Shown here: positions 9,484 to 43,822 of the stretch, in pieces | Position numbering within the stretch: position 1 is the stretch's first letter | Layout of the letters: every line of letters begins with the position of its first letter | IMG/VR virus record: IMGVR_UViG_2526164690_000022 | Origin: a virus | Lineage: Duplodnaviria > Heunggongvirae > Uroviricota > Caudoviricetes | Length of the DNA: 45,440 bases | Strand: one strand, 5' to 3' | Notes under the pieces: model-generated | Told to the model about the DNA's origin: nothing | The model's input: only the letters and a program-made list of their open reading frames with translations | The model's database searches: none | Program-made: the position numbers and the translations under genes

Positions 9484-9580
9484 TCAAATCATTTACGCAC
9501 TCAAAATTTGTTAGAACATTGATTTTAGTTTTCTAACATATTATTTTACCGCTCGGAACAAAACAGAGTCGGTATACATT

Positions 9581-10576
9581 ATGAGTGCAATAATCACACC
9601 TCATTTCGTAAACGGAGCTGGTGTGGCTGTCTTTCCGGTAGACAAGCCCACCAGTAACTACATTGGCGCAGGTCGCCGTTTCATTATCTCCCCACTTCCG
9701 CGTGAACAGGCTGAAAACACGCCAGATGGCGTAGTGGATCTGAATTATTCGCTGGTTGCCAACCAGTCTCTGAAACCGTTTTTTCAAAGCGAGCGCGTAT
9801 TTAACGCGTTGGGCGGTGAAGATTCGCTTGTTCATTGGGTAAGTTCCAATATCCACGATTGCCAGGCGCACGATAAGCGCGATTGCAGCCACCAGCTAAC
9901 CACTCATTTCTATAACGGCTCTGCCGTTCGCCTGTGCTGGAAGCATGATGCGGAATACATGATGAAGGGGTACAGCAAGTTGGACGACCAGTTATCCCTG
10001 AATCGTGCCAACTGGGTTATGAACTGGGCTGCGAGCGAGTTAAAACTACCGCCAGAACGCGATCTGAGCATGGTTGAACTCACTTTTTGGGCCATTCGCC
10101 GGAATCTGAAAGATGAGCTACCAGATGAAGCCGGTCGCATTGCATTTTGTCAGCCAAAAACTGAAATCCCTACCGGTACGCTGAAAGAATCAGATATCAC
10201 CTGGGAGCACAGTACCCGCGAGCTGGTGGACATAACCGCAGAGCAGATCGTCAACCTGTCTGTAGATGAGGATTCCGGCCTGCTTTATATGCGCCGACCA
10301 AAAGCGGTCCTCGGTAAAAGCCCGGCTTATCTCCGGTTTGTGGTTTCTCGTCCGTGCATCGGATGCGGTGGCAAAGTTAACCACCCGTTCATGTACCGCG
10401 CCCGCTCGTTAAACGAACACGACCGCTGGGCTGTTCCTCTTTGCGATGACTGCGCCAGAAGCGCAGAAAACGATGTCCGGGCATGGGAAAAAGCACATGG
10501 CATACGCCTTTACGTAGCCGCTAACCAGCTTTTTGACTTCGCCATCGAGCGCGGAGTGATCACTTTCAATAACTGA
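9581..10576 (+). CDS. DUF968-family prophage protein
   Basis: C-terminal Cys cluster CIGCGGKVNHPF...AVPLCDDCARSAEND typical of DUF968 as I recall it. Confidence 0.5.
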   Translation: MSAIITPHFVNGAGVAVFPVDKPTSNYIGAGRRFIISPLPREQAENTPDGVVDLNYSLVANQSLKPFFQSERVFNALGGEDSLVHWVSSNIHDCQAHDKRDCSHQLTTHFYNGSAVRLCWKHDAEYMMKGYSKLDDQLSLNRANWVMNWAASELKLPPERDLSMVELTFWAIRRNLKDELPDEAGRIAFCQPKTEIPTGTLKESDITWEHSTRELVDITAEQIVNLSVDEDSGLLYMRRPKAVLGKSPAYLRFVVSRPCIGCGGKVNHPFMYRARSLNEHDRWAVPLCDDCARSAENDVRAWEKAHGIRLYVAANQLFDFAIERGVITFNN

Positions 10577-10580
10577 TGAG

Positions 10581-11273
10581 GTGGATCAAAAAATGAAAGA
10601 ACGCGGGATGATTTTTAACGATGAGATGGTCAGGGCCATCCTCGAAGGAAGGAAGACGCAGACTCGCCGACCTGTAAAAAATGTCAGGGCCGATAACTGC
10701 CTGGTTATCCGTAAACCGACAAAGAAACGCAATGGTGTCTATACCCACGTTATGGATGCACCTGAACATGGTTTATGCCCGTTCGGTAACGTTGGTGATC
10801 GCATATGGGTCCGTGAGGCGTGGGCGATATTAGGCAATGAGGATGGTTGCAGTGTGGACTGGAACGACAACCTTTGTCGTGGCGATGAGAAGAACGCAGC
10901 AAGGATTTATCGGGCCAGTTGTGAGCAAAAGCCGGGTGATTACGGCTTGTGGTCGATACCCGATGATGCCGACTGGAAACCTCACACTGTGAATGAAAAA
11001 TTTGATGGCGGGTGGCGTCCATCAATTCACATGCCGCGCTGGGCATCGCGCATTTTGCTGGAAATTACCGACGTGCGTGTGGAACGGCTGCGTGATATGA
11101 GCGAGGCAGATGCTAAAGCAGAAGGCGCATCTCCGGCGATGTACAAAATTACGCCGCCGGAAGCTGTTTATCGCGTTGGTTTTGGTGATATCTGGCGCAG
11201 TATTTACGGGCAGGATAACTGGCTATCTAACCCGTGGGTATGGGTAATCGAGTTTAAGCGCATTCAGGAATAA
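10581..11273 (+). CDS. Hypothetical prophage protein, possibly ASCH-like
   Basis: N-terminal MIFNDEMVRAILEGRKTQTRR resembles the ASCH GxKxxExR signature; weak. Confidence 0.4.
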   Translation: MDQKMKERGMIFNDEMVRAILEGRKTQTRRPVKNVRADNCLVIRKPTKKRNGVYTHVMDAPEHGLCPFGNVGDRIWVREAWAILGNEDGCSVDWNDNLCRGDEKNAARIYRASCEQKPGDYGLWSIPDDADWKPHTVNEKFDGGWRPSIHMPRWASRILLEITDVRVERLRDMSEADAKAEGASPAMYKITPPEAVYRVGFGDIWRSIYGQDNWLSNPWVWVIEFKRIQE

Positions 11274-11356
11274 ACCGTGAGTATGCATCAAATCGTCAGT
11301 TTTTCAGGTGGACGAGCATCGGCCTGTCTCGTTCATCTGTTCGAAGAGGTAGTGGC

Positions 11357-11560
11357 ATGACAATCGTAAAAACCCATACCGGCACCGTGATCACCAAAGA
11401 CGGTCCGCAGGTAAAAAAACTGCACCAAACAGAGCGGATGTGGGTCGTCGGCAAAAATGAGTTTTACCACAAAGATACCGGACGCCGCCACTTTGCAGAA
11501 AATACGCGCCGTCGACTGCTGTTAGACACCATCAAGCCTATCGAGGTGAAGCATGTTTAA
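11357..11560 (+). CDS. Hypothetical small protein
   Basis: ORF only. Confidence 0.3.
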   Translation: MTIVKTHTGTVITKDGPQVKKLHQTERMWVVGKNEFYHKDTGRRHFAENTRRRLLLDTIKPIEVKHV

Positions 11561-11801
11561 ACAGAACGAAAAAGCTATCGCTCAAATTGCTGATTATATC
11601 CCGCGTGCGTGCCGGGGTATGCAGTTGCAGGAAGCCAAAGCGCGCCTGGAGAAAAAAATTGCGCTCTATATTGATGACGGCTGTGATGCTGCCGTTCTTA
11701 ACGCGGCGTTCGCACCAGCTCTTAACAGTCATACTCGGGAGTCTTTTTTTCGTGCATCGAAGCGCAACTCCGCAAAGGAGGCAACCAGTGAGCCAGATTG
11801 A
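11553..11801 (+). CDS. Hypothetical small protein
   Basis: ORF only; overlaps the start of the next gene. Confidence 0.3.
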   Translation: MFKQNEKAIAQIADYIPRACRGMQLQEAKARLEKKIALYIDDGCDAAVLNAAFAPALNSHTRESFFRASKRNSAKEATSEPD

Positions 11802-19551: not shown

Positions 19552-19624
19552 AGCACCCTCCGAAATAGGCGAGGGTACTTTACAGCAAAGATAACAATCT
19601 AAAAAGATGTGTTAGAAATTTAAT

Positions 19625-20653
19625 TTATGAATCCATCAGGCGGCTATTAGCCCCCACAGACACGCCGCCACGGCGCAGATACCGCATAAGTGTTTCCGGT
19701 TTCTTCCAGGTTCCTTCCTGCATGATCTCCACCATAGACACCTGCTTTTCTGCCATATCGATAGCAGCCCCGACACGAGCACTATGCCCGGTCCACGTCC
19801 GGTATCTCCCCTTGTTTGGAGTGGCATCTCTTTTATTCAGCAACACCCAGGCGTCACTAAATATTTTCTCCATTGCAGGTGCAGTAAGGGGCGTTGTCGT
19901 AATCCTGGCCTTATTGCTACGGTGTATCGGCGGGAACAGCACCGCGTCAGGATGTTCACGAAGCCCGGAAACATCCAGCCAGTCATTCAGCACAGCAGTA
20001 GTGCGACGGGAAAGCACCTTATCAAGCCCGGCGGCGGTCGTTATTGTCTTCGTGTGTGAAATATGTAGCGTGACAGTGTCACCTGTTTGGTCCAGATCTC
20101 CTACACGAATACGCGAGATTTCAGACATGCGCATCAGCGTATTGTATGCAACAAAGAGAAAAGCCCGGTTGCGCAGGTCCACCAGCCGTTCTGACCTGGA
20201 CAACAGGACGTCGAGCAGTTTCAGATCGTCCCACCGCAGCGGTATAGCCTGGCCTGTTCGTTCGCCTTTTTCCGTTGCCGCTTCACGCCGGATGCGCCGC
20301 ATAGCCAGAGAAACACTTTTATCATCCGAAAGTGGCGGAAGGCCACAATGCGAAAGCAGCATGTTCAGCATGGCGTAGTGCTTATCAATGGTGGTCGAAG
20401 CCAGATCAGCATCATGCAGCTGAAGAAAATACTCGCGGGCCATCTCTGGAGAGATCGGGAACCAGGCGAGCTGGCGAGCGTGACACCATCTCGCCCAGGA
20501 GTGAAACACTAACCGGAGATCGCGCAAAGTATTAGGCGCGTAAGCCCCCTGGTCATTCATGAACCGCATAAAGTTTTCTGCGGCCTCCTGGTACTCTTTG
20601 CCAATGTTGCGCAGAAAACCACTGGAGCTGCCAGAGATAATTAATTCACTCAT
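19625..20653 (-). CDS. Cre-like tyrosine site-specific recombinase
   Basis: Aligns with P1 Cre along its length: LNMLLSHCGLPPLSDDKSVSLAMRRIRRE; AFLFVAYNTLMRMSEISRIRVGDL; WTGHSARVGAAIDMA...VSMVEIMQEGTWKKPETLMRYLR (catalytic Tyr near the C-terminus). Confidence 0.85.
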   Translation of the reverse strand: MSELIISGSSSGFLRNIGKEYQEAAENFMRFMNDQGAYAPNTLRDLRLVFHSWARWCHARQLAWFPISPEMAREYFLQLHDADLASTTIDKHYAMLNMLLSHCGLPPLSDDKSVSLAMRRIRREAATEKGERTGQAIPLRWDDLKLLDVLLSRSERLVDLRNRAFLFVAYNTLMRMSEISRIRVGDLDQTGDTVTLHISHTKTITTAAGLDKVLSRRTTAVLNDWLDVSGLREHPDAVLFPPIHRSNKARITTTPLTAPAMEKIFSDAWVLLNKRDATPNKGRYRTWTGHSARVGAAIDMAEKQVSMVEIMQEGTWKKPETLMRYLRRGGVSVGANSRLMDS

Positions 20654-20838: not shown

Positions 20839-21020
20839 AAAATGGCGATTTTTTTTAATCCATCACAGATTGATTGCTGACCAGTAACACGTTGCCTTCA
20901 TGGTCTTTAATTTGCGAAGCGTGGTTTATACAGTTGGTTTTCTAAAATTGATGACAAAAAATCACAGTTCGATCCTTTACTCACTCTGTTATTCGACATA
21001 AATTTGTCATAGTAATTTTA

Positions 21021-21034
21021 TGTTAGAAAACTAA
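21021..21034. promoter_or_regulatory. Operator-like motif tgttagaaaactaa about 15 bp upstream of the 21049 gene
   Basis: Member of a dispersed motif family (see findings); a second half-site-like copy ttttctaaaa lies at 20939-20948. Confidence 0.4.
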
Positions 21035-21048: not shown

Positions 21049-22086
21049 ATGAGTAAGAAGTCGATCGAGAAAGAGTACAAACGGTTCCTGCAAACCGCTG
21101 AACGGTGGAAAGAGCTGGTGGTCGCAAACTCTGTTTTCCATGATACCAGTTATGCTGGCGAGGAATTCCGCCATGTTGCATTAACGCATGACCAAAACAT
21201 ATTAGAAGAAGCTGAAAAATGTCTTGCTGAATGGAAAGCCTTCGTTGACATGTGCCGCGATGCCGACGGCAAAGCGTCGAACATTGTTGAGTCTGTATAT
21301 TCTCCGATCCCATTCATCATTGAGGACACCAATCAAAGCACGCATGTTGTTGTGCAAAGCGCTACAACAACACGTACATTTACACGTGAACAATTGCTCA
21401 AAAAATACGACAAAATCATAAAGAAAAGCCTGAAAAATAGGGTTTTTTCTCAAATCGTAGGTGCTCTTGAAGAAGAACAGCGCTTCTTTGAAGCTGAGCC
21501 TGAAGGCGAGATCTACCGGGCGCGTAAAGAGGCATATACAGATGTTGTGCTGACAACAAACATCGAAGGCAGCAATGCCCTTTCTCGCTTTAGAGTTGGC
21601 GCACATGGCGCATTGGTTTTCGCAAGACTACCGAAGACAACAATCCCCGTTGTCAATAATGTTGGTGAGCGCCGGAGCATTACAATTTATTCTGGCGTCG
21701 AATCGGTACCTTGCAGCCTTCTCGGCGATTTTAACTTATATCGTGTTCGTGACCTGGAAAAACACCAGCCAAGCTACGTTGCGAAGTCGTACATCTTAAG
21801 GAACATCGATATTCGCAATGAAAGCCTTAAGCAGAAATCCGCTAAGATGCTGGAGGATGCCGATCCGGCTATTCGCCATATCATTGAGCGTAAGATACGT
21901 ACATCACGTGAAGCAATGGCAAGGCTGGATAAAATGGATCTGGAATTGTTAGACGTAATGATGGCCTCTGGAGACGACCTGACCGGCATTAAACTGAATG
22001 AAGCTCGTAAAAAATACGGCAAAGCAATCGAAGAACGTTACGGATACACATTCCCCCAAACGCAGTACGCCGCGAAGCTCTGGTAA
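21049..22086 (+). CDS. Hypothetical protein in the immC position (candidate C1-type immunity repressor)
   Basis: 345-aa ORF between the lox site and pacB, convergent with pacB, operator-like motif at its promoter; no sequence motif recognised. Confidence 0.45.
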   Translation: MSKKSIEKEYKRFLQTAERWKELVVANSVFHDTSYAGEEFRHVALTHDQNILEEAEKCLAEWKAFVDMCRDADGKASNIVESVYSPIPFIIEDTNQSTHVVVQSATTTRTFTREQLLKKYDKIIKKSLKNRVFSQIVGALEEEQRFFEAEPEGEIYRARKEAYTDVVLTTNIEGSNALSRFRVGAHGALVFARLPKTTIPVVNNVGERRSITIYSGVESVPCSLLGDFNLYRVRDLEKHQPSYVAKSYILRNIDIRNESLKQKSAKMLEDADPAIRHIIERKIRTSREAMARLDKMDLELLDVMMASGDDLTGIKLNEARKKYGKAIEERYGYTFPQTQYAAKLW

Positions 22087-23622: not shown

Positions 23623-24986
23623 TAATCATCCTCCGGCGGTTCTATCGCGATATCATCATCTCCGGCGTCATACCCTGCATCAGATGCATCATAATCACCG
23701 TAAATTTCAGCCGTTGCCGAAGGGTCAATATCCAGCTCTTCGTCGTTGGCCTCGAATTCTCCAGCTTTACGCTCGCCATTGCGGTCGTAATCTCCGCACC
23801 CCAATTCTTCAACAATGGTTGCCACATCCGCCCGGCGCTCTGCCAGCCATTGCGGATGGTTAGCCTGAAGCGTTGCAAACTCCCTTGCCTCTTTGTCCAG
23901 CTGTTCATCATCAACATCATTGACGTCAGAAACAGGTGGTTCGAGAAGAGTGATAGCTTTCGCCGCGCGCGCCGCGAGGATAGCCGGGACGCTGACCCCC
24001 TGGCGCTCGATGTATTCAGCAACACCGATATCATCCAGTTCCTCGCGCTCACGCATACGTATAGCGGCGGCGATAACTCTGGCAGCGCGTGCGTCAGCGC
24101 CAATGCGATATTCAATCTCTTTGCCACGCTGTTCGGCCTGTAGGCGTGCTAATTCGAGTTTTTCTCTGGCCTCAGCCTCTTTGAATGCTTGCTGGCGAGC
24201 GCTCTGACGAAGCTTTTCATCCCCCTGTCGCAGCTTTTGTTCGGACTGATATATAGCTGCCAACCTACTGATAAAATCATTCATGTAGTAGGCCGCGTCA
24301 CTGATTAGACCGAGAAGGCGCTGCCCAGGGTGCATTCCTTCTGGCTCTTTATCGCCCAAGGCGTCTATTTCCGCCTGTAGACGTTCGGCCTCCTGATCAA
24401 CAATGCTTTGATACTGAAGTGCGCGCTCTTGCGCCATTTGAATTGCTAACCGCAGGTGTTCTTCTGCGCCGTTCTTCATCATGTCGCGAGCCACATTCGT
24501 AGTGGGCAATGTGGCACGTTGCACAGCACCGCCAGGGATCATTGCTGAAGATCCCTCAATTTTTGGGGCGCTTTTATCTTCTTCGGGGATCATTTTCGCC
24601 ATTTTTTCGCGCAATGATCTCCTGACAGATTCTTTTATCTCATTGTTATTATTTGCATTATTTTCATGATCCGAAGTTTTCTTTCTCGGCATACTTCGGA
24701 AAGAACCTGCGCCCTGCGAATTGTCAATTTCTGTAAATTTTGTTTTTTCTGCACCCTCTTCCAGCTTTTTTGTTGCTCTTCCCGCCCGTTTTTTTTCAGG
24801 TGATTTGGTGCTTTTTTTTGTTGTCTTTACCTGCGACCGCACCTCATTTTTTTTCATATTGAGATGCTTTCTGGCTGTATTGAAGCTAAGGCCATGCTCC
24901 TCACAGTATTCCTTTACAGTGATCCCTTTTTCTTCACGCAAAGCTATAAAGCGGGCGCGGTGCTCCTCCCAATTAACCAGACTCAT
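23622..24986 (-). CDS. pacA: Terminase small subunit PacA-like (HTH, acidic C-terminus)
   Basis: N-terminal MSLVNWEEHRARFIALREEKGITVKEYCEEHGLSFNTARKHL; strongly acidic C-terminal tail. Confidence 0.7.
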   Translation of the reverse strand: MSLVNWEEHRARFIALREEKGITVKEYCEEHGLSFNTARKHLNMKKNEVRSQVKTTKKSTKSPEKKRAGRATKKLEEGAEKTKFTEIDNSQGAGSFRSMPRKKTSDHENNANNNNEIKESVRRSLREKMAKMIPEEDKSAPKIEGSSAMIPGGAVQRATLPTTNVARDMMKNGAEEHLRLAIQMAQERALQYQSIVDQEAERLQAEIDALGDKEPEGMHPGQRLLGLISDAAYYMNDFISRLAAIYQSEQKLRQGDEKLRQSARQQAFKEAEAREKLELARLQAEQRGKEIEYRIGADARAARVIAAAIRMREREELDDIGVAEYIERQGVSVPAILAARAAKAITLLEPPVSDVNDVDDEQLDKEAREFATLQANHPQWLAERRADVATIVEELGCGDYDRNGERKAGEFEANDEELDIDPSATAEIYGDYDASDAGYDAGDDDIAIEPPEDD

Positions 24987-25375
24987 AAAGCAACACCACG
25001 CTTTTTAACGGCGGCATTCCACAGCTTATTCGCCATGTCCACCAGCTCTCGTTGCTCTTTTCGCGCCTGTTCGACTGATTTCCTGCTACAGTTTTTAACC
25101 AGTAAGCTACCGTATTCAGGCGTGCGCCCGCGCACCTTGAACTGATATCCGTTCAGACCATGTAGCCAGTATTTTCGTGGATACACACGATCATCCAGCT
25201 CACAGATTGCCCTGCTTGAACGAACAAAATGACGAATGATGTTAGTTACACTTACTCGTGAAACATGGAGATGAGGGTATTTTTCTTTGGCGAGAGTGGT
25301 AATTTCAGTGACTGTCAGATAGCAGTCAGCCCTGATCATGATATCCGCAATTTCTGCGCTGCTGATTTGTTCCAT
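24983..25375 (-). CDS. lpa: Late promoter activator Lpa-like protein
   Basis: 130-aa protein immediately upstream of pacA, as in P1 (gene 10/lpa); assignment by position and size, N-terminus MEQISSAEIADIMI. Confidence 0.55.
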   Translation of the reverse strand: MEQISSAEIADIMIRADCYLTVTEITTLAKEKYPHLHVSRVSVTNIIRHFVRSSRAICELDDRVYPRKYWLHGLNGYQFKVRGRTPEYGSLLVKNCSRKSVEQARKEQRELVDMANKLWNAAVKKRGVAL

Positions 25376-25483
25376 TAATCCCCCGGGCAGGAAATGACCG
25401 AGGGGATGATAATGAGAATGTTAAAACTGTATAGACTGGTAAAAAGATGATTATATTAGAAAATTAATATTAAATACCTAACG

Positions 25484-26905: not shown

Positions 26906-26981
26906 TGGTGGCCCCTACCGGACTTGAACCGGTGACCGTGCGATTATGAGTCGCCAGCTCTAACCACTGAGCTAAAGGGCC
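26906..26981 (-). tRNA. tRNA with CAU anticodon, ileX-like (tRNA-Ile2 lysidine type; Met by anticodon alone)
   Basis: GGCCCTTTAGCTCAGTGGTTAGAGCTGGCGACTCATAATCGCACGGTCACCGGTTCAAGTCCGGTAGGGGCCACCA; full cloverleaf; close to E. coli ileX as recalled. Confidence 0.8.
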
Positions 26982-27135
26982 AGATTACTGTTAATTCCGC
27001 TTACGCTTTTTGCCAGGACCGCGTAAGGCTTTTGCTGCTTGCTCGACCCCATATGCAACCACCAGCAGAAATAAAAATGTCCACCAAGGGTTCTTGTCGG
27101 CAAACGTCCAAAATTCCATCATGTTATCTATTTGG

Positions 27136-27963: not shown

Positions 27964-28180
27964 TAATCAATTTCCTGGTTTTTTCACGAAAAAAGACTAC
28001 TGCAAAAGCCGGGTAAATGAGCGCGAGAAGGACTCCCAACAATACAAGTATTGTGCTGTCAGATGAGATCATATTTGGCAAAAGCCAAACATACAGAACC
28101 AGTGACACAATCAAACAGAGGACGACATAAATATATAACCGCACCCATAGCGTTCGACATTTGTTCGGATTGTTCTGCAT
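27944..28180 (-). CDS. Small membrane protein (upl-like)
   Basis: Two predicted TM helices (VVLCLIVSLVLYVWLL; LVLLGVLLALIYPAFAVVFF); overlaps plp start. Confidence 0.45.
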   Translation of the reverse strand: MQNNPNKCRTLWVRLYIYVVLCLIVSLVLYVWLLPNMISSDSTILVLLGVLLALIYPAFAVVFFREKTRKLINEKNVD

Positions 28181-28323
28181 CCTCTCACTCCATTATTTAC
28201 CGAATAAAAAAGCTGCGGTGCCTGGTGCCTCCAGGTGACGTTAACCAGTTAACAATTAACGCCGGGATGTTTGACTTAACCACTAAGGAGGATTGTTTTA
28301 ACTGTTCCGCGTGCGCTTAGCCG

Positions 28324-28882
28324 CATTCACCGCAATGGTAAGAGCACTTGGCTGGCTGGGCGGCGATGACGCCTGTACGCATTTGGTGATCCGGTTCTGC
28401 TTCCGGCATTCGCTTAATTAGCCAAATACTCTTAACGTTGCACTGGCGGAGAGTAATGGAATCGAACCATCATCGCTTGCGCAATGGGACGGTTTTCAAG
28501 ACCGCTTGAGCACCATGCTCCCTACTCTCCAGTGATTGTGATGGTCGGTGCTGAACTCCGACACAGGGTTGTAGCAAGCCCCGCAAAGCGCGCACTACTG
28601 TAGTTGCGGCACATCAGCCTGTGCATTCACCACAATGTTGAGAACACTGGTTGTCACGCTGCAACGCAACATTTATTCATAGATTGGGATATGACCCCGT
28701 TACGCCAGTGTTCTCAACGTTGTGGTGCCGGTTACGGTTCCGGCCAGGCCTCTTCCTCAACGGGGTGTTCTCCATACGGACTACCGTTTATTGGTCGTTC
28801 CTGCGGTTTATGTTGTGAAGCCAGATGCTTATCTTCTGGTTGCTTCAAAGAGCTGCACTTCATCACAACGGTAAGAGCACTC
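28324..28882. repeat. Family of ~23-bp repeats flanking the tRNA genes (four clear copies)
   Basis: caccgcaatggtaagagcacttgg (28326), caccacaatgttgagaacactgg (28628), inverted copy ccagtgttctcaacgttgtggtg (28706), catcacaacggtaagagcactcg (28860); degenerate fifth copy near 26676. Confidence 0.55.
28444..28530 (-). tRNA. tRNA-Ser (UGA), class II with long variable arm; atypical D-arm
   Basis: GGAGAGT...GCGGTCTTGAAAACCGT...GGTTCGATTCCATTACTCTCCGCCA; anticodon stem-loop matches E. coli serT as recalled; D-loop short. Confidence 0.6.
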
Positions 28883-28932
28883 GATGCATTTAAGCCAAGC
28901 CCCATAAGGGAGAATGCCCTTACCTGTTGTGT

Positions 28933-29008
28933 TGGTGCCGGTTAACGGACTCGAACCGCTGACATCCTGCTTACAAGGCAGGCGCTCTACCAACTGAGCT
29001 AAACCGGC
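28933..29008 (-). tRNA. tRNA-Thr (UGU)
   Basis: GCCGGTTTAGCTCAGTTGGTAGAGCGCCTGCCTTGTAAGCAGGATGTCAGCGGTTCGAGTCCGTTAACCGGCACCA; perfect acceptor stem. Confidence 0.85.
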
Positions 29009-29012
29009 AATT

Positions 29013-29099
29013 TGGTGGGGAGTGATGGAGTCGAACCACCCGAGTCGCAATGACAGTAGATTTACAGTCTACCCCGCTACCCCTACGGACTAACTCCCC
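29013..29099 (-). tRNA. tRNA-Tyr (GUA), class II
   Basis: Acceptor GGGGAGT/ACTCCCC; anticodon arm GTAGA-CTGTAAA-TCTAC; long variable arm; GGTTCGACTCC T-loop. Confidence 0.75.
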
Positions 29100-29104
29100 T
29101 AAAT

Positions 29105-29181
29105 TGGCGATGGTGGGTGGATTCGAACCACCGACCGACAGCTTAGAAGGCTGCTGCTCTATCCTACTGAGCTACACCATC
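29105..29181 (-). tRNA. tRNA-Arg (UCU)
   Basis: GATGGTGTAGCTCAGTAGGATAGAGCAGCAGCCTTCTAAGCTGTCGGTCGGTGGTTCGAATCCACCCACCATCGCCA. Confidence 0.85.
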
Positions 29182-30415
29182 ACTTGCCGGGTACGTCTCC
29201 GGCGAGGGCTTCCACCTCCGTATGCTTTTCGGCGCACCGCGCCCTGGCTGCAATTCGGTAACAGGGGATGCACAACCCTGGCTTCCAGCGTGATTAGCGC
29301 CTTCAGCATGACGGGATATACCCGTAGTAGGATGTTATCCCAGAAAGCCATTAATCAATGGCTGTTACGCGGGAGGGACGTAACAGGTAAGGGCGCTGAC
29401 CAGAAAGACCTGACCCTTCTCATTCATCTGGTTAATCACACCAGCGCCCTTGCCTGTTATGCCTCCCCGTTCCCTAATACACAGACGGGGACACTCTGCG
29501 GTCGATTTTTTGACGGGGGACGACTCATACCCCGTGGCGTCTGGCTTCTTAGGCCGCTACCATCATCAGATCATCGTTTGCATTTACTTTAATGGTCGGT
29601 TTCTAAACCGCCGCAAAGTCGCTAACCATGACGAAAACCCTAAAAAAGCCCACCCGAAGATGGGCAAATACGCTACATCTCACACAAGAAAGAAGCCGAC
29701 TGCCTGAGCTGGATTCACTTTCAAATGCCCGCAGAAAGGGATCACAAGTCGGCTTCTTTCTTGATGCGGCACTCTCTCCGCCCGTCACCGCTCTGTCTCG
29801 GTTGTCGCGTTTGCCACGCCAGCCGTAACGAGGTTTAAAGTCTTTACACGTTTCCATCACTCGACTGCCGTCTGTGGCTGTTCGTTGCAGCGGGGGTGCC
29901 TCCCCCTGGGGATATCCCCGGCCTTACCCCATTCTTTCAAGACACAATGCAAGACCACATCCGCATAGGTGCATTACCGCAACATTAAGGAGACTCAGGG
30001 CAAAAGGTAACCGCCACAAAAATCCCTATGCCTCCTTAATGTTGAAGATGTGCATTGATGATTAGATGCAGCATGTACCGTTACTCTCTGCCGGACCATC
30101 ATCAATGAACACCTTAAAAAGACCTTCCGTGGCTCAACATGTATTGTCGTTTACTCCGCAAAGTGCTCTCTCTGAAACCACTTTCCGCACTAAACCTGCT
30201 GAACTTTGGCCTGCACGGTGCCAAAGCGTGCTCTTGCATTACCATACTTTTCTAACACTTTAATTTGTTAAATGCTGGTGGGCGAACAATAACCAATAAG
30301 TGACTATCAAGCCCAGCAAGCGAAACGTGGGTACTGCCCACCAGCAAGGAAAATTCTATGTTAAGTTATCTCCACAATCAATACATTCGAATTGTGATTT
30401 TAGATTTCTAACACA
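29182..30415 (-). ncRNA. ORF-free, hairpin-rich region at the 5' side of the tRNA operon (candidate structured leader / stable RNAs)
   Basis: No credible ORF over 1.2 kb; several long perfect inverted repeats with 40-50-nt loops (e.g. 17-bp stem 29685-29701/29748-29764); operator-like motifs at 30250 and 30406. Confidence 0.3.
30250..30274. promoter_or_regulatory. Operator-like inverted pair ttctaaca-N8-tgttaaat
   Basis: Member of the dispersed TTCTAACA family; upstream (minus-strand sense) of the non-coding region and tRNA cluster. Confidence 0.35.
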
Positions 30416-31624
30416 TTATTTCCCATAAAGATCTTCTACACCCCCATTCTTCTTATCCCATTCGTTCGCCCATACCCGGCAAGCGTCAATGATTTCCTGA
30501 CGACGATCTCCTTGCATGAACGGGATGCTTTCATGGAAACAGCTTGGAATGCAGGCCACACTGAATACAGTATCAAACTCCGTCTGCTTGATTGCCTCCA
30601 GCGTCTCCGGACGCATTTTTAATTCATCGATTGGCGCATCCTTAGAGTCCATAATCCGGCGATATAAGCGCGGAAAATCCGTCTCCAGGTACGCCATAAT
30701 TTTATCTGCGAGACATTCGTCTATGTCGGTATTCCAGTCCTTTTCGAAGCCCGGCAGGCGATAGTAAAGCGGCGTTCCCCATACCGATGGGATCACATCC
30801 ATCGTTAACAGGCGATTGGTTCTGATTTGTTGATGGTAATTAGCCGTCAACAGTGCTTCGCCACGCTGCCCTGTTTCCGTAACCAGGCCGTGCGGATACT
30901 CATGGATGTAGGCAATGGCATCCCTTCCATCATACATGAGTGGAAATGTCTCTGGTCTTTGTCCCATGCCACAAGCACGGTTCAGATCGTGACCAAGCTG
31001 TGAGCACTCTCGCTTTAATGTTTCGATAATGCTCTGCGCTGTAGCCAACTTTTTACGCAGTGTGACGCCTTCGCCTTGATAATCAATGCATTGCTGATTG
31101 AGCTTGGTTAAACGCTCTTTTAGTTCCCGGCGCTCTCTTTTCAGCGCGCGGTTATCCTTCTCCGCAACATCCAGCCGCTTTGTCAGGCTGGGCGGATAGT
31201 CTTTTTTGTAACGGTTCAAATCGGCTTCGGCAGATTTACGCAGTGTATTTGCCTGTTCAAGACGCGCTTCCAGATTGCCGATCTCATTACGCATATTCGC
31301 GGCAAATTGATTAACTGCATCACCCAGGCTTTCAACTGTCGCTGATACGCCTGTGACTTGTGAAAAACGGATCAAGCCATCATTAACGGCTTGTTGGTAT
31401 TCCTCAAACTGATCCACCAGCTTATTGTAATCAACTGCCCCATCATCAAGCAGCTTGTTGATTTCCGCCACTAGGTTATCTGTAGTGGCAATGACACTCT
31501 CGTGCAGTCGCTTTGACAGGTCATCACCCGGATTCCGTTTCTGTATAAGAGCGATTTGTGTGCGCAGCGTTTCAATTGCTGTCGAGATAATTTCCAGATT
31601 AGAAGTATCAGTGTGTTGACTCAT
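30416..31624 (-). CDS. Hypothetical protein with N-terminal coiled coil and C-terminal globular domain
   Basis: ATG 31624 (MSQHTDTS); the listed ORF extends to GTG 31639; heptad-rich N-terminal half; no known motif. Confidence 0.45.
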   Translation of the reverse strand: MSQHTDTSNLEIISTAIETLRTQIALIQKRNPGDDLSKRLHESVIATTDNLVAEINKLLDDGAVDYNKLVDQFEEYQQAVNDGLIRFSQVTGVSATVESLGDAVNQFAANMRNEIGNLEARLEQANTLRKSAEADLNRYKKDYPPSLTKRLDVAEKDNRALKRERRELKERLTKLNQQCIDYQGEGVTLRKKLATAQSIIETLKRECSQLGHDLNRACGMGQRPETFPLMYDGRDAIAYIHEYPHGLVTETGQRGEALLTANYHQQIRTNRLLTMDVIPSVWGTPLYYRLPGFEKDWNTDIDECLADKIMAYLETDFPRLYRRIMDSKDAPIDELKMRPETLEAIKQTEFDTVFSVACIPSCFHESIPFMQGDRRQEIIDACRVWANEWDKKNGGVEDLYGK

Positions 31625-31649
31625 TGCTGTTCCCGTCACTTTGTTAAAT

Positions 31650-31672
31650 TAGTTTTCTAACATATTTTATTA
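31650..31672. promoter_or_regulatory. Operator-like motif tgttaaattagttttctaacata upstream of the 30416..31624 gene
   Basis: Contains TTCTAACA preceded by an inverted TGTTAAA half-site, 27 nt from the start codon. Confidence 0.4.
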
Positions 31673-32248: not shown

Positions 32249-32557
32249 TTAATCAAGACAAACATACTCCGTGATAGCTTTTATGGCTTCAGCGGCACTG
32301 CGCGCCTCAAAGCAGTAGTAACCGGCTTCAGTGAGGCGGGTCATCCAGACGAGTTGTTCGGGAGTCAGGCGATTTCTCCCATGTTTCATCTCAATGCGCA
32401 TTCCGTGGTATCCCCCACAAGCAAGGTCTATAGAAAGATCGGGATATCCCTTCTTTTGGCCCTCTGCCACCATTTTTATTGCCGTCCTTATGCCTCGCAG
32501 GCCACCGTTTGGAGTGGCGTGAGTATGCTCATACACATAACGCATATTGCGATACAA
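32249..32557 (-). CDS. VRR-NUC domain nuclease (PD-(D/E)xK superfamily)
   Basis: KGYPDLSIDLACGGYHGMRIEMKHGRNRLTPEQL matches the VRR-NUC core. Confidence 0.65.
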   Translation of the reverse strand: MYRNMRYVYEHTHATPNGGLRGIRTAIKMVAEGQKKGYPDLSIDLACGGYHGMRIEMKHGRNRLTPEQLVWMTRLTEAGYYCFEARSAAEAIKAITEYVCLD

Positions 32558-32878
32558 CCAGTCCAGGACGCGAACCTGCTCGTAATGCTCATGGTTCCTT
32601 TTGATTAGATCTGGGTTTTTCTCCAGTTCTCTAAGAGCTGCGGCATGTGGGGATGTTTCAGAATATTCACTGCGACGCCTTCTCTTTCGCGCTATTTTCT
32701 AACACACCCATTGATAGTAAATATGCGAAATAATAACAACAACGTTAGATTTGTAAAACAAGAGAGATACTACTCAAGGATGGTCTATATGCAACAGGTC
32801 GGATTTGCTTTTAGAGTAAAGAGTGACCTTAATCAACAAGGAGGGTAAATCGCATGGCATTTACCCAACCTGTTATTT

Positions 32879-40449: not shown

Positions 40450-40600
40450 AGGATTTCCCCCTCTAAACCGTAAAAAATTCCGCTATGCGGTACGGTTGAG
40501 AGGGTATGGAGAATGTTATTTTCAGGGGGACGATACTACCGTCAAAATCACATACTCCCCATAGTTTGCCTACTTATTAACCCATTACCGGGAGAAAAAT

Positions 40601-41086
40601 ATGGCAAACATTGAACCTCGCTGGCTAATTGAAGCCCGTAAGCACATTGGCCTGACTGAAATAAAAGGCGCTAAACACAACCCTGAAATCGTTCAGTTCT
40701 GGCGCGACATCAAGCGCGGCGGAATTAAAGACGATGAAACGCCGTGGTGCGCAGCATTTGTCGGTGCAATGCTGGAACGTGTAGGCATCCGCTCAACAAG
40801 ATTTGAGTCGGCAAAATCCTATCTGGATTGGGGCGAGAAATTAGATACACCGGCATACGGATGTATCGTTGTATTTACCCGCGTAGGCGGTGGGCACGTA
40901 GGCTTCGTTGTCGGACGCCGCGCCAATGGCGATCTGCTTGTCTTGGGTGGGAACCAGGGGGATGCGGTTAATATTCGCGCATTCCCAACATCAAGAGTGT
41001 CTGGCTATCGCTGGCCTGCTGGCGAACCACACAATACCGCTCTGTTACCAGTCGGAGACGCAGCAACCTCAACTAATGAGGCATGA
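40601..41086 (+). CDS. CHAP/NlpC-P60-like protein (TIGR02594-like), possible peptidoglycan hydrolase
   Basis: TPWCAAFVGAML ... GGGHVGFVVG pattern (Cys/His of a papain-like fold); moderate. Confidence 0.45.
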   Translation: MANIEPRWLIEARKHIGLTEIKGAKHNPEIVQFWRDIKRGGIKDDETPWCAAFVGAMLERVGIRSTRFESAKSYLDWGEKLDTPAYGCIVVFTRVGGGHVGFVVGRRANGDLLVLGGNQGDAVNIRAFPTSRVSGYRWPAGEPHNTALLPVGDAATSTNEA

Positions 41087-41089
41087 AAA

Positions 41090-41112: not shown

Positions 41113-41118
41113 CACGCT

Positions 41119-42023: not shown

Positions 42024-42247
42024 CAGTGTGCCTCCGCAATGCCGGGATTGGTAATATTGCGATACCAGGGATTAGTGTTTGGTTGTGGGGAAGTAGAGAA
42101 ACGACCAGTAAGAACACCATGCTGATCAGGGATCAGAGAACGGGCTTCTTTTTCGGTTGCGGCAATTGCGAAGTGATCGCAGTGTTTTTGCAGGGAGTGG
42201 AAACGCCAGATGAATTCAGGACGTGAGCAAGGATTGGCATTAACCAT
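42023..42247 (-). CDS. icd: Icd-like small protein (interference with cell division)
   Basis: 74 aa (P1 Icd is 73 aa), overlaps ant start; its RBS lies in a sequence complementary to the upstream c4-like element. Confidence 0.45.
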   Translation of the reverse strand: MVNANPCSRPEFIWRFHSLQKHCDHFAIAATEKEARSLIPDQHGVLTGRFSTSPQPNTNPWYRNITNPGIAEAH

Positions 42248-42299
42248 AGTTACGGCCTCACTAACAGGTTTAACAACCTGCTACCCGCTGTCAAACAGG

Positions 42300-42470
42300 T
42301 GGCAGGACGTGACAGGGTTGACAGACTGGCGTTAGTGAAACCAGCAGGCCGAAGCCTCCCCATCACGCCCCACCATAATTCGGGCGTAACGCGGTTTACG
42401 GACACAAAAATACCGCAATATCGGAAATCTGCGGTTGTCCGCACTAACATTCAGGCTGTCAAACCTGGTC
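42300..42470 (-). ncRNA. c4: c4-like antisense RNA locus with a1/b1 and a2/b2 target repeats (immI)
   Basis: Minus strand: ttgacagc + gttagtg upstream (a1/b1), complements tcactaac + ctgtcaa (b'/a') at 42318-42342, then ttgacagc and gttagtgagg (a2/b2, the icd RBS); UUCG hairpin aggc-ttcg-gcct. Confidence 0.45.
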
Positions 42471-42577
42471 GCAGAATTTGCTACGACGGCATGAATATAA
42501 GCCTGAAAACATGGAAGATCAACTAAAAATTTCAGCAATGGATGACTTCAGTCGATGATGCAGATCATACATTCCGA

Positions 42578-42606
42578 TTTAGAAACAGCAAATTAATTTT
42601 CTAACA
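42578..42606. promoter_or_regulatory. Operator-like site at the head of the c4-icd-ant operon (Op51-like position)
   Basis: tttagaaaca-N11-ttctaaca; TTCTAACA family member upstream of the immI-like operon. Confidence 0.4.
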
Positions 42607-42660
42607 CAAATTATCGAGCGAGCATTTTCCGATCATTGGGATGCTTTGTAGACACACAGG

Positions 42661-43533
42661 TCATCCCCTAAATCCCGCAGGGATTGACCAATCCTCCCGG
42701 TCAAATTCAGACCGATAGCCACGCTGTTTCATCAGGTCAAAGGCTTCACCAATGGTTACACACCCCTGGGAGCCAGAATAATCCATTGAGAAATCCAGGG
42801 CACTGGATTGTTTAGGCTTATTCACTGCGGTAGCGGCACTACGTATCCATGCAAATTTTTTTGCCAGCTTTTCAGCGGTACGATACAGAGCCTGCCGTTT
42901 TGCGTGCCCCTCGTCTGAACGACGCTTTGCAGCTCTCGCTTTTGCCGCCGCCAGGCAGTGGTTGGTATGTTCTTCCCTGATTACTGTTTTTTTATCCAGT
43001 CCCCCATTATCCGCTTGAGTACTATCTGCTGGTGAAGCCTTTGGCTGAACCGCGCATGATCTTTCTCTTCTTTTGGCTATAGAGTGACTCTTATTTTCTA
43101 TTGGCTGTTCATTTTGAACATGGGGGGACTTGTTCAATTTGAACAGGGGGTTCCCAGTTTCAAAAAAATAACGAACCTTTGAAATCAACTGCTTAACCAG
43201 CTTTGTGGCGTTGGCAAATTTGATGCCCTGCTTACCCCCTATCTCCATTGCTACATGAATGAAGTGGAGAAATTGTGTCGTAAACCGATATACGTTACAC
43301 ACCTGGGCATTGTTATTCGCTACCTGATGTTGCTTAACAAGCATTCCGCACTTCGTCGCTTCAGCAAATGCCCGGCGCACAGTAGAAATGCTGCGTCCTG
43401 TAATCTCGGACATATCAGCATATGAGCGACGGATCATGTATACATCGGTAGACCCTGCCAGGTTGGCGAACTCGGCAATAATGGCGCTATGTGAAGGGGA
43501 AAGAAGACCGCTATGACGAGCAAAAAAACTCAA
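42661..43533 (-). CDS. Hypothetical HTH-containing protein
   Basis: N-terminal MSEITGRSISTVRRAFAEATKCGMLVK helix-turn-helix; Lys/Arg-rich centre. Confidence 0.4.
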   Translation of the reverse strand: MSFFARHSGLLSPSHSAIIAEFANLAGSTDVYMIRRSYADMSEITGRSISTVRRAFAEATKCGMLVKQHQVANNNAQVCNVYRFTTQFLHFIHVAMEIGGKQGIKFANATKLVKQLISKVRYFFETGNPLFKLNKSPHVQNEQPIENKSHSIAKRRERSCAVQPKASPADSTQADNGGLDKKTVIREEHTNHCLAAAKARAAKRRSDEGHAKRQALYRTAEKLAKKFAWIRSAATAVNKPKQSSALDFSMDYSGSQGCVTIGEAFDLMKQRGYRSEFDREDWSIPAGFRG

Positions 43534-43685
43534 CTGATGACCTTTGATTTTTTGTGGTATTCAGTGTTGTTTTTATACTCAGAAGTGTTGAAAGTTACTG
43601 AAACTGAATTTAAAATACTCACCAGATAGTTCCGTGAAAAAATCTATCTACCGTATAAATCTATGGCAGTGGATTTATACACCCA

Positions 43686-43716
43686 AAAAGCCGCTTCTCA
43701 GCGGCTTTTGCTTTTT
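43686..43716. terminator. Rho-independent terminator (bidirectional)
   Basis: aagccgc-ttctca-gcggctt flanked by A-run and T-run. Confidence 0.55.
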
Positions 43717-43822
43717 TGGCAGTCGCTACCGGAGCAGTGACCGCGATCCTACTCGATCCCATCCACCAGGATCAACAGTGTATATAAATACACTATGTTA
43801 GAAATTTAACTTAACAAGGCGG

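What the first reader, a model, noticed from the sequence alone, without database searches (positions are those of the whole stretch)
9509..43803. Dispersed operator-like motif TGTTAGAA/TTCTAACA at ten intergenic sites
Exact 8-mer hits occur at 9509, 9531, 19610, 21021, 30250, 30406, 31655, 32697, 42599 and 43796, where about one or two would be expected by chance in 45 kb. All are intergenic and in the phage part; extended consensus is roughly GATTTTAGTTTTCTAACAYATT, often with an inverted half-site nearby. Positions include upstream of the candidate immunity gene, the c4-icd-ant operon, the tRNA/non-coding operon and the 407-aa gene. This mirrors P1, where the C1 repressor controls many scattered operators; the core resembles but is not identical to the P1 operator ATTGCTCTAATAAATTT, suggesting a heteroimmune C1-type regulon. 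A late-promoter (Lpa) box is the alternative.
Basis: partly seen in the sequence, partly recalled or inferred. Interest (0 to 1): 0.6.

Follow-up and report, generated by a model that had tools for sequence, protein, structure and literature searches.

The report
Operator set of phage D6 repressor
The repeated TTCTAACA motif marks the scattered DNA sites where the prophage repressor (C1) of the P1-like plasmid phage D6 most likely binds to keep the phage silent, so it is a differently tuned copy of phage P1's well-known repressor system; as a side result, the repressor is predicted to fold like the replication-terminator protein Tus.

Summary
In detail: there are 10 exact TGTTAGAA/TTCTAACA copies against about 1 expected, all in non-coding positions. 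The window is a phage D6-type plasmid prophage carrying a Tn21-type mercury transposon end at 1-4644.

The core sits in a roughly 27-bp asymmetric motif, TnAAnTTARTT-TTCTAACA-YATTnTTT. Across the whole D6 genome (89.5% coding), the 15 best matches are all intergenic.

The sites lie where P1 has experimentally defined C1 operators: c1 itself, lpa, repL, c4-icd-ant, the tRNA operon, pmgR/S and pmgM, plus hrdC-dmt and ref outside the window.

The motif aligns with P1's operator ATTGCTCTAATAAATTT through a shared TCTAA core. P1 has no TTCTAACA copy, and the window has no P1-type operator. The core is an invariant island at syntenic positions in four relatives whose C1 is 44-89% identical.

The late-promoter alternative is rejected. 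D6 late operons carry a different box, AAATCACA-N7-TAnnnT.

Half of the loci are inverted pairs with exactly 14 bp between cores, which differs from P1's divalent operators.

Verdict: this is a heteroimmune C1 regulon, a new member of a known kind, and binding is untested. As a side lead, the C1 model matches Tus uniquely.

The parts
9509..9516 (-). Left half of a divalent operator between ppp and the pdcB-like gene. TTCTAACA reads on the minus strand.
   Evidence: Exact core. Its partner lies exactly 14 bp away with 0 mismatches. The stretch 9504-9520 is 14/17 identical to the P1 operator consensus.
9531..9538 (+). Right half of the same divalent operator, 43 nt upstream of the pdcB-like gene (9581-10576).
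   Evidence: (34.0 bits). The pair spans -35 to -10 of the best sigma70-like promoter, TTGATT-17-TATTTT. A syntenic copy lies 39 nt upstream of the DUF968 gene in L009.
19610..19617 (-). Operator 8 nt downstream of the dre (Cre-like recombinase) stop codon and upstream of the orf117-like gene.
   Evidence: 34.9 bits. It is conserved in L010, L008, L009 and L012.
20940..20947 (+). Second, degenerate operator upstream of c1 (TTCTAAAA here; TTCTAACA in L008 and L009).
   Evidence: Alignment A4; coordinates. It lies 81 bp centre-to-centre from the c1-proximal operator.
21021..21028 (-). c1-proximal operator, 21 nt upstream of the c1 start codon; presumed site of autoregulation.
   Evidence: TGTTAGAAAA is the only long invariant block in the c1 upstream region across four lineages.
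21049..22086 (+). c1, the D6-type C1 prophage repressor (345 aa), the inferred binding protein.
   Evidence: Annotated as prophage repressor in D6. It is 21% identical to P1 C1 with E 2e-8; hhalign gives 95.6%; NF041318 matches below its cutoff; it falls in the same PHROG 1678 as P1 C1; and it carries a precomputed PF27008 hit.
25454..25461 (-). lpa operator (core TTCTAATA), 79 nt upstream of lpa (24983-25375, minus strand).
   Evidence: PWM score 20.7 bits, above all shuffles. This is the same position as P1 Olpa/Op94. The site is conserved in four lineages.
25476..25483 (+). Weak inverted partner of the lpa operator (ACCTAACG), 14 bp from the core.
   Evidence: Its GTTAG is invariant in alignment A7.
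30250..30257 (+). Operator in the leader of the minus-strand tRNA operon, about +95 from the predicted promoter.
   Evidence: 25.6 bits. The tRNAs lie on the minus strand at 29181-26906. The promoter is TTGATT(30381)-17-TAGAAT(30353). A syntenic copy occurs in L008 and L010.
30384..30391 (-). Weak inverted partner (TTCGAATG) of operator 30406, abutting the -35 of the tRNA-operon promoter.
30406..30413 (+). Operator 3 nt downstream of the pmgS stop codon, about 25 nt upstream of the -35 of the tRNA-operon promoter.
   Evidence: (32.5 bits). It is the positional analogue of P1 Obanab/Op72, which controls the P1 tRNA-ban operon.
31655..31662 (+). Operator between pmgR and pmgS, 16 nt upstream of the pmgS start.
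   Evidence: 35.9 bits, the best site. It lies just downstream of the -10 of TTCCGG-17-TAAAAT. The P1 analogue is OpmgRa/b (Op86). A syntenic copy occurs in L012.
32697..32704 (+). Operator in the leader of pmgM; its flanks match the motif only weakly.
   Evidence: 17.0 bits. The strong promoter-like TTTACA-16-TGnTATTAT ends 25 nt upstream. The reading frame is closed by the TAG inside the motif. The L012 copy lies 6 nt upstream of the pmgM-like start.
42577..42584 (-). Weak inverted partner (TTCTAAAT) of the c4 operator, 14 bp from the core.
   Evidence: It lies in the spacer of the candidate promoter TTGCTG-16-TATGAT.
42599..42606 (+). Operator upstream of the c4-icd-ant immunity operon (minus strand).
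   Evidence: 32.0 bits. The C4 RNA lies at 42295-42380 and its a1b1 targets at 42448-42500. The P1 analogue is Oc4/Op51.
43796..43803 (-). Operator upstream of repL (lytic replication), 173 nt before the start annotated in D6.
   Evidence: 29.8 bits. The core lies in the spacer of TTGTTA-16-TAGTGT. The P1 analogue is OrepL/Op53. In D6 the core is TGCTAACA.

Best explanation
The motif is the operator of the D6-type C1 prophage repressor, encoded at 21049-22086.

Each site is an asymmetric sequence of about 17-27 bp around TTCTAACA. At about half of the loci it is paired with an inverted, often weaker, copy exactly 14 bp away (22 bp centre to centre, about two helical turns).

In the lysogen, C1 would occupy about 17 sites at about 14 loci. 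There it would block sigma70 promoters of the following targets: the lytic replication gene repL, the late-gene activator lpa, the c4-icd-ant antirepressor operon, the tRNA operon, the pmgM/pmgR/pmgS genes, the pdcB-like operon, the genes downstream of dre, and c1 itself (autoregulation). Blocking would be by overlap with -35/-10 or by sitting just downstream of the start site.

When C1 is inactivated, presumably by the Ant antirepressor, these promoters fire. Lpa is then made and switches on late operons through a separate box.

Shown here: the enrichment, the non-coding placement, the conservation, the positional and sequence correspondence with P1 operators, and the homology of the repressor.

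Inferred: that C1 is the binder, that the overlapped promoters are real, and that binding represses.
For: 1. Enrichment and placement. There are 10 copies against 1.05 expected. In the complete D6 genome (89.5% coding) the 15 best PWM hits are all intergenic, with P about 2e-15. There are no copies in the 20-kb tail and lysis block.

2. Positions match P1's annotated C1 operators. The P1 operators are Oc1a-e, Olpa, OrepL, Oc4, Obanab (tRNA operon), OpmgRa/b, O26, Odmt and Oref. D6 and window sites lie at c1, lpa, repL, c4, the tRNA operon, pmgR/S, pmgM, hrdC-dmt and ref. The lpa site was found by a PWM built from the other sites, so it acts as a fulfilled prediction.

3. The operator consensus sequences are related. 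The PWM-to-PWM best register aligns the TCTAA cores (score 10.9 against a null of 7.9 +/- 1.0; 1 of 300 shuffles reaches it). Site 9504-9520 is 14/17 identical to the P1 consensus.

4. The two sets are mutually exclusive. P1 has 0 TGTTAGAA in 94 kb, and the window has no other P1-type operator.

5. The repressor is a homolog of P1 C1 (PF27008).

6. Conservation. In four lineages with 89, 51, 48 and 44% identical C1, the core is an invariant island at syntenic sites within diverged flanks.

7. Fixed geometry. Two strong pairs (0 and 1 mismatch in the partner core), and 5 of 12 other sites, have an inverted partner at exactly 14 bp (null frequency 4.3%, P = 9e-5).

8. Cores overlap or abut the best sigma70-like promoters at pdcB, c4, repL, pmgS and the tRNA operon.

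9. P1 biology: C1 binds 22 dispersed asymmetric 17-bp operators and controls RepL and Lpa (PMC8546580).
Against: There is no binding or expression data, so C1 is assigned as the binder by analogy.

C1 of D6 is only about 21% identical to P1 C1, and it scores far below the NCBIfam equivalog cutoff (25 against 500 bits).

The promoter assignments come from a simple consensus heuristic. The stricter tool scan found few promoters.

Some sites (30250, 32697, and c1 O1 under one promoter choice) lie 10-95 nt downstream of the predicted start. This needs a roadblock or looping explanation rather than simple occlusion.

No Lxc-like corepressor was detected at the syntenic position.
Confidence: 0.8

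Rival explanations
1. The motif is bound by a different D6-lineage regulator or a host factor rather than by C1. Candidates include the orf72-type transcriptional regulator or an Xre/Hxr-like protein. C1 would then recognise something else.
For: Nothing here shows which protein binds. The phyletic pattern (motif present with D6-type backbones, absent from P1) would fit any lineage-specific regulator. D6 encodes other predicted regulators.
Against: The sequence relatedness to the P1 C1 operator, the site-by-site positional match with P1 C1 operators, and the conserved pair of sites directly upstream of c1 in every lineage are hard to explain otherwise. No second enriched intergenic motif is left over for C1, because the only other one fits late promoters.
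Confidence: 0.1
2. The motif is the Lpa-dependent late-promoter box of D6.
For: It is dispersed and intergenic. D6 encodes an Lpa homolog (PF25716, E 5e-57) that is only 31% identical to P1 Lpa, so a changed box is expected.
Against: There is no -10 hexamer at a fixed distance, unlike P1 late promoters. Orientation relative to downstream genes is mixed, and inverted pairs occur. There are no copies before tail, sheath, lysis or portal operons, while copies do occur upstream of c1, lpa itself, c4 and repL. A different motif, AAATCACA-N7-TAnnnT, lies in sense orientation 43-63 nt upstream (150 nt for mat) of prt, ddrB, R, pmgB/sit, gene 23, gene 7, mat and orf16.
Confidence: 0.02
3. The motif is not a regulator site. 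It would be a shared piece of early promoters read directly by host RNA polymerase (TAACAT as a -10, AT-rich UP-like flanks), or a relic of module-boundary recombination.
For: The core contains a -10-like TAACAT when Y = T. The flanks are AT-rich. Several sites sit at gene-module junctions.
Against: Half of the cores read TAACAC, which lacks the essential final T. Orientation is mixed and the pairs have a strict 14-bp spacing. Sites also lie downstream of predicted starts and 3-8 nt after stop codons. The 8-bp core is invariant while the surrounding promoter-like sequence diverges.
Confidence: 0.05

Closest known systems
Phage P1/P7 C1 repressor and its dispersed operators (Op sites; consensus ATTGCTCTAATAAATTT)
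   Same: The repressor is homologous. There are many asymmetric operators scattered over a plasmid prophage of about 90 kb. The target set is the same: c1, lpa, repL, c4-ant, the tRNA operon, pmgR/S, dmt and ref. The operators share a TCTAA core and match at about 10-11 of 17 positions. Both have a mix of single and paired ('divalent') sites.
   Different: The specificity differs (TTCTAACA against CTCTAATA), and neither genome carries the other's operator. The D6 repressor is 62 aa longer, with a predicted long helical C-terminus. D6 pairs have the 5' arms facing and 14 bp between cores, whereas P1's Obanab and Oc1ab are convergent 17-mers overlapping by 6 bp. Weak second half-sites are frequent in D6. 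No Lxc-like gene lies at the syntenic position, and no coi-sized ORF is evident upstream of c1.
P1 late promoters (9-bp -22 box ACAAGTGACTT, then N4, then TAnAAT; Lpa-activated)
   Same: They too are a dispersed intergenic motif in a P1-like genome, and Lpa is present in D6.
   Different: The TTCTAACA motif has no fixed -10, mixed orientation and the wrong gene set. D6 has its own late-type box, AAATCACA-N7-TAnnnT, and retains only one P1-type box (D6 71092-71114).
Tus-Ter (E. coli replication terminus site-binding protein on asymmetric Ter sites)
   Different: There is no sequence-level similarity (hhalign 4.9%; no Pfam Ter hit). TM-scores are low (0.32-0.41). C1 is a transcriptional repressor with many sites, and no fork-arrest role is known. 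The C-terminal helices of D6 C1 have no counterpart in Tus.
Lambdoid CI/Cro operators
   Same: Both involve prophage maintenance by promoter occlusion, with autoregulation.
   Different: Lambdoid operators are symmetric, clustered at two loci and bound by HTH dimers. Here the sites are asymmetric, number about 17, and are scattered over the genome.

Membership tests
P1-type C1 repressor-operator regulon | The repressor is homologous to P1/P7 C1. | tested here: met
   BLASTP gives 21% identity over 240 aa with E 2e-8. hhalign gives probability 95.6% and E 1.2e-8 over 227 columns. Both proteins fall in PHROG 1678. PF27008 Phage_P7_repressor_C1 is precomputed for both types. NF041318 matches with E 9e-6 but only 25 bits against a 500-bit equivalog cutoff, so D6 C1 is a family member, not an equivalog.
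P1-type C1 repressor-operator regulon | The operator matches the 17-bp consensus ATTGCTCTAATAAATTT. | tested here: not met
   The only match with 3 or fewer mismatches in the window is one of the TTCTAACA sites. The D6 consensus shares the TCTAA core and about 10-11 of 17 positions. The specificity is related but distinct, which implies heteroimmunity.
P1-type C1 repressor-operator regulon | Many operators are dispersed over the genome at promoters of c1, lpa, repL, c4-ant, the tRNA/ban operon, pmg genes, dmt and ref. | tested here: met
   P1 feature tables compared with D6 and window sites. There are about 17 sites at about 14 loci, and all of the top 15 are intergenic.
P1-type C1 repressor-operator regulon | The operator is asymmetric and each site is read singly, with some divalent operators. 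| tested here: inconclusive
   The motif itself is asymmetric and some sites have no detectable partner. However, 7 of 14 loci have an inverted partner at a fixed 14-bp spacing, and the geometry differs from P1's overlapping divalent operators. The oligomeric state cannot be tested here.
P1-type C1 repressor-operator regulon | C1 binds the sites and represses the adjacent promoters. | not testable with these tools
   Only heuristic promoter overlap is available.
P1-type C1 repressor-operator regulon | The tripartite immunity accessories are present (c4 RNA, icd-ant, Lxc, Coi). | tested here: inconclusive
   C4 RNA and its a1b1 targets are found by Rfam, and icd and ant are annotated. The ORF syntenic with lxc shows no similarity to Lxc. 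coi was not searched for beyond ORF inspection.
P1-type late (Lpa-dependent) promoter | A conserved box lies at -22 with a -10 hexamer at fixed spacing. | tested here: not met
   No conserved hexamer lies outside the motif in the aligned sites. P1 late promoters do show box-N4-TAnAAT.
P1-type late (Lpa-dependent) promoter | The box lies in sense orientation upstream of morphogenesis and lysis operons. | tested here: not met
   There are 0 copies in D6 26.7-46.5 kb and orientation is mixed. AAATCACA-N7-TAnnnT meets this criterion instead.
Tus (Ter-binding protein) fold | The structure is similar to Tus over both domains. | tested here: inconclusive
   [not shown]
Tus (Ter-binding protein) fold | The protein belongs to the Tus family at sequence level. 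| tested here: not met
   hhalign gives probability 4.9%. There is no Pfam hit and no PDB sequence hit.

The most novel reading that the evidence does not exclude
P1/D6-type C1 repressors are Tus-fold proteins. A single polypeptide would clamp an asymmetric site of about 20 bp in the way Tus clamps Ter. This would explain the long-known asymmetry and monomeric binding of P1 C1.

The D6 branch would have added a long helical C-terminal module that couples two such clamps on inverted sites 22 bp apart, or between distant operators such as the two flanking the c1 or tRNA-operon promoters.

A further possibility not excluded here is that operator-bound C1 acts as a polar roadblock. Several sites sit 3-8 nt after stop codons or downstream of start sites.
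Probability: 0.4. Interest if true: 0.6.

Novelty: new member of a known kind. Interest (0 to 1): 0.35.

Why it matters
D6-type phage-plasmids are common in E. coli and Salmonella. About 50 plasmid records match 80% or more of the 24-kb query stretch, many at 99.9% identity, and this one carries a mercury-resistance transposon.

Knowing the operator gives three things. It provides a sequence-level immunity type that separates D6-like from P1-like elements. It gives a map of which genes are silenced in the lysogen, namely repL, lpa, ant, the tRNA operon and the pmg genes. It also supplies parts (a repressor and operator orthogonal to P1 C1) for engineering.

The P1 and D6 pair is a natural example of a repressor and about 17-22 dispersed operators changing specificity together.

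If the Tus-like fold holds, it would give the first structural rationale for asymmetric operator recognition by this repressor family.

Tried and rejected
- **Literature.** I tried to read the D6 genome paper (PMC5800970), the Dre/immC paper (PMC534624) and the P1 genome paper (PMC523184). None is held, so I cannot exclude that the D6 operators were already described there. The D6 GenBank records carry no operator features. Text searches for the motif and for D6 plus C1 operators gave nothing relevant.
- **P1 late box.** It is not enriched in the window (7 matches against 10.6 expected with up to 2 mismatches). A PWM of P1 late promoters finds only one convincing site in D6.
- **Stringent promoter scan.** The tool found almost nothing near the sites, so I used a weighted heuristic instead. 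These promoter calls are tentative.
- **Relatives by protein.** The search for related loci with the single C1 protein in genome contigs found no relatives. Relatives were obtained through protein search plus contig look-up instead.
- **Lxc.** The ORF syntenic with P1 lxc is not Lxc-like.
- **Tus at sequence level.** Sequence and profile comparison of C1 with Tus is not significant.
- **Phage collection.** tblastn of D6 C1 against the phage collection finds only the D6 records, so no mosaic phage was available to test operator and repressor co-switching.
- **Loci export.** Several loci were not exported to the Python sandbox. D6 26.7-66 kb was routed through an alignment object.

Full report
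**What the window is.** Bases from about 4645 to 45440 are a phage D6-type plasmid prophage. They are 98.4% identical to Escherichia phage D6 (NC_050154/MF356679) over the shared part, and 99.9% identical to many E. coli and Salmonella plasmids of about 92 kb. Bases 1 to about 4644 are the merR-proximal end of a Tn21-type mercury-resistance transposon. Its terminal inverted repeat is inserted four codons into D6 orf88. The D6 annotation names the genes around the sites: c1 21049-22086(+), pacB and pacA, lpa 24983-25375(-), pmgS 30416-31639(-), pmgR, pmgM, ulx, darB, ant, icd, repL, pro, and the Cre-like recombinase dre 19625-20653(-). Rfam and ARAGORN add the C4 antisense RNA (42295-42380, -), its a1b1 targets, and five tRNA genes on the minus strand between 29181 and 26906.

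**The observation.** TGTTAGAA/TTCTAACA occurs 10 times at exactly the stated coordinates, against 1.05 +/- 0.97 in dinucleotide-preserving shuffles (maximum 4). Aligning the sites in one orientation gives an asymmetric motif of about 27 bp, TnAAnTTARTT-TTCTAACA-YATTnTTT, with no information beyond it. A PWM from the ten sites recovers an eleventh site above every shuffle. It lies at 25454-25461 with core TTCTAATA, 79 nt upstream of lpa. Cross-lineage alignment reveals a twelfth, degenerate site (TTCTAAAA, 20940-20947) upstream of c1.

I assembled the full 91,159-bp D6 genome and scanned it. The genome is 89.5% coding, yet the 15 best PWM hits are all intergenic (P about 2e-15). The 16th is the pmgM site. 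That site lies in an N-terminal extension of pmgM as called in D6. In the window the frame is closed by the TAG inside the motif. In relative L012 the copy lies 6 nt upstream of the pmgM-like start. The 20-kb tail-fibre, baseplate and lysis block has no copy. Outside the window D6 has further sites: an inverted pair upstream of hrdC-orf64-dmt, one on each side of ref, and one between gene 23 and orf52.

**Comparison with P1.** The P1 GenBank record annotates 20 monovalent C1 operator sites (four of them paired as two divalent operators) and 11 late promoters. Extracted and aligned, the operators give ATTGCTCTAATAAATTT with an invariant TAA inside TCTAA, and the late promoters give ACAAGTGACTT-N4-TAnAAT. 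The P1 operators sit at c1 (five), lpa, repL/kilA, c4, the tRNA-ban operon, pmgR (two), gene 26/pmgL, ppp, pmgT, dmt, ref, mat, ssb and rlf. The D6 and window sites sit at c1 (two), lpa, repL, c4, the tRNA operon (two), pmgR|pmgS, pmgM, hrdC-dmt, ref (two), ppp|pdcB, dre|orf117 and 23|orf52. At least eight loci therefore correspond one to one.

The two motifs align significantly in the register that superimposes TCTAA (score 10.9 against a null of 7.9 +/- 1.0; 1 of 300 column shuffles reaches it). The site at 9504-9520 (AATGTTCTAACAAATTT) is 14/17 identical to the P1 consensus, and it is the only near-match to that consensus in the window. P1 in turn has no TGTTAGAA at all in 94 kb, against about 3 expected. 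The two phages thus carry related but mutually exclusive operator sets, which is what heteroimmunity predicts.

**The protein.** The 345-aa product of 21049-22086 is annotated as the D6 prophage repressor. It is a distant homolog of P1 C1 by several measures:

- 21% identity over 240 residues, E 2e-8.
- A profile of nine D6-type sequences against P1 C1 gives hhalign probability 95.6%.
- Both proteins fall in PHROG 1678.
- Both types carry the precomputed Pfam PF27008 Phage_P7_repressor_C1.
- It matches NCBIfam NF041318, but far below the equivalog cutoff.

It is therefore a family member with diverged specificity, not an ortholog-grade equivalent.

**Conservation.** Contigs encoding C1 proteins 89% (L010), 51% (L008), 48% (L012) and 44% (L009) identical to the window's C1 were retrieved. 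Three of the four show a clear excess of the exact 8-mer: 5 copies against 0.65 expected in L010, 5 against 0.53 in L012, and 7 copies in 21 kb in L008 (no expectation computed). In L009 the one-mismatch count was not above chance (9 against 10.2 expected), and it has 4 exact copies in 15.9 kb. What the four lineages share is position. Most copies in each lie at syntenic sites, although L009 has one inside pacB:

- about 20 nt before the c1 start, plus a second site 70-90 nt further upstream;
- upstream of lpa;
- just after the recombinase gene;
- upstream of the pdcB/DUF968 gene;
- flanking pmgS and pmgR;
- directly upstream of pmgM.

In alignments of the c1-upstream, lpa-upstream and dre-downstream regions, the core (TGTTAGAAAA, TCTAA(C/T)A, TCTAACA) is the invariant island in otherwise diverged sequence.

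**Architecture.** The ppp|pdcB and hrdC sites are inverted pairs with exactly 14 bp between cores. Of the 12 remaining strong sites, 5 have an inverted partner with 3 or fewer mismatches at exactly that spacing: c4 (TTCTAAAT), lpa (ACCTAACG, whose GTTAG is invariant across lineages), 30406, D6 75980 and D6 76639. The frequency at other spacings is 4.3%, giving a binomial P of 9e-5. The 5' arms face each other, and the P1-equivalent 17-mers are separated by 6 bp. P1's divalent operators are instead convergent 17-mers that overlap by 6 bp. This is a real difference from P1.

**Relation to promoters (heuristic).** With a weighted -35/-10 score:

- The pdcB pair spans -35 to -10 of TTGATT-17-TATTTT.
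- The weak c4 partner lies in the spacer of TTGCTG-16-TATGAT.
- The repL core lies in the spacer of TTGTTA-16-TAGTGT.
- The pmgS core starts right after the -10 of TTCCGG-17-TAAAAT, which follows a terminator-like hairpin.
- The pmgM core lies 25 nt after the strong TTTACA-16-TGnTATTAT.
- The tRNA operon has a strong TTGATT-17-TAGAAT promoter (30381-30353, minus strand) bracketed by operators at about -45 (with its weak partner abutting the -35) and about +95.

The stricter tool scan was mostly silent, so these promoters are proposals. The pattern (occlusion at most sites, downstream or flanking sites at some) is what is described for P1 C1. The P1 features are, and PMC8546580 gives the summary of 22 operators with control of RepL and Lpa.

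**The late-promoter alternative.** TTCTAACA sites lack a fixed-distance -10. They point both ways relative to genes. They are absent from morphogenesis and lysis operons, and they occur before c1, c4, repL and lpa itself. An unbiased k-mer count over D6 intergenic regions finds one other enriched word, AAATCACA/TGTGATTT (12 intergenic copies in 11 regions). In sense orientation it lies 43-63 nt upstream (150 nt for mat) of the start codons of prt, ddrB, R, pmgB/sit, gene 23, gene 7, mat and orf16. In these eight copies it is followed after 7 nt by a TAnnnT-type hexamer, such as TATGCT, TACACT, CATACT, TATCCT, TATTGT, GAAAAT, CATAAT or CATAGT. That is the architecture of P1 late promoters with a changed box, consistent with Lpa being only 31% identical. 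Only one P1-type box survives in D6. The late-promoter reading of TTCTAACA is therefore rejected.

**Side lead: the fold of C1.** No solved structure matches by sequence. Two AlphaFold2 models were built. The first used 9 sequences (pLDDT 78.8, pTM 0.46). The second used 20 sequences including P1-type C1s (pLDDT 84.9, pTM 0.54, with all five models at 81.5-84.9). Both show an alpha/beta region of about 230 residues followed by two very long helices, 233-270 and 276-307.

**Verdict.** The feature is the operator set of a heteroimmune, P1-type C1 repressor. It is a known kind of system, with a new specificity and a different paired-site geometry, and it is not annotated in the public D6 records. 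Direct binding is untested, and I could not read the D6 genome paper to check priority.

Noticed in passing
window 40545-40552 (+), upstream of orf16 (40601-41086); further copies in D6 at 25234, 27740, 38128, 45504, 54137, 67406 and 72113: A candidate D6 late-promoter signature, AAATCACA(nACT)-N7-TAnnnT. It lies in sense orientation 43-63 nt upstream of late genes (150 nt for mat): prt, ddrB, R, pmgB/sit, gene 23, gene 7, mat and orf16. It is analogous to P1's Lpa-dependent box but has a different sequence. Only one P1-type late box remains in D6 (71092-71114).
   Followed up: partly
window 1-4644; junction at about 4644: The first 4.6 kb (66% GC) is the merR-side end of a Tn21-type mercury-resistance transposon. 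Its inverted repeat (...CTGAGGTGCCC) is inserted four codons into D6 orf88. The insertion cuts the orf88-to-ppp early operon off from its own operator and promoter (D6 76639), which must lie beyond the transposon and outside the window.
   Followed up: partly
[not shown]
   Followed up: partly
window 26906-29181 (-) and 28700-30250: The tRNA cassette here (Arg-TCT, Tyr, Thr, Ser-TGA, Met, all on the minus strand) differs from the one annotated in D6 (Ser, Thr, Asn). The region is about 500 bp longer and resembles phage vB_EcoM-Ro157c2YLVW. About 1 kb between the promoter at 30353-30381 and the first tRNA has no annotated gene.
   Followed up: no
window 32557-32770 (-): The pmgM start is unclear. 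The D6 record starts pmgM at a TTG inside promoter-like AT-rich sequence. In the window that frame has a stop inside the operator, and the next canonical start (TTG at 32557) would remove residues conserved with P1 PmgM. This points to a mis-called or non-canonical start.
   Followed up: partly
window 20959-20966 (+) and 30393-30400 (-): Two copies of the late-box word AAATCACA have no recognisable -10. One lies between the two c1 operators. The other overlaps the spacer of the operator pair at 30384-30413. D6 54192 likewise overlaps the operator at 54210. Their significance is unknown.
   Followed up: no
D6 74022-75987 (outside the window; locus L005 8023-9988): D6 carries a second icd-ant-like module (orf83 and orf82). 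An operator (75980) lies 3 nt after the ref stop codon at the head of that leftward transcription unit. This suggests two C1-controlled antirepressor operons.
   Followed up: no
window 19610, 30406; D6 75980: Three operators lie only 3-8 nt downstream of the stop codon of the preceding gene (dre, pmgS, ref). This is compatible with a dual role: blocking read-through, and controlling the next promoter.
   Followed up: no
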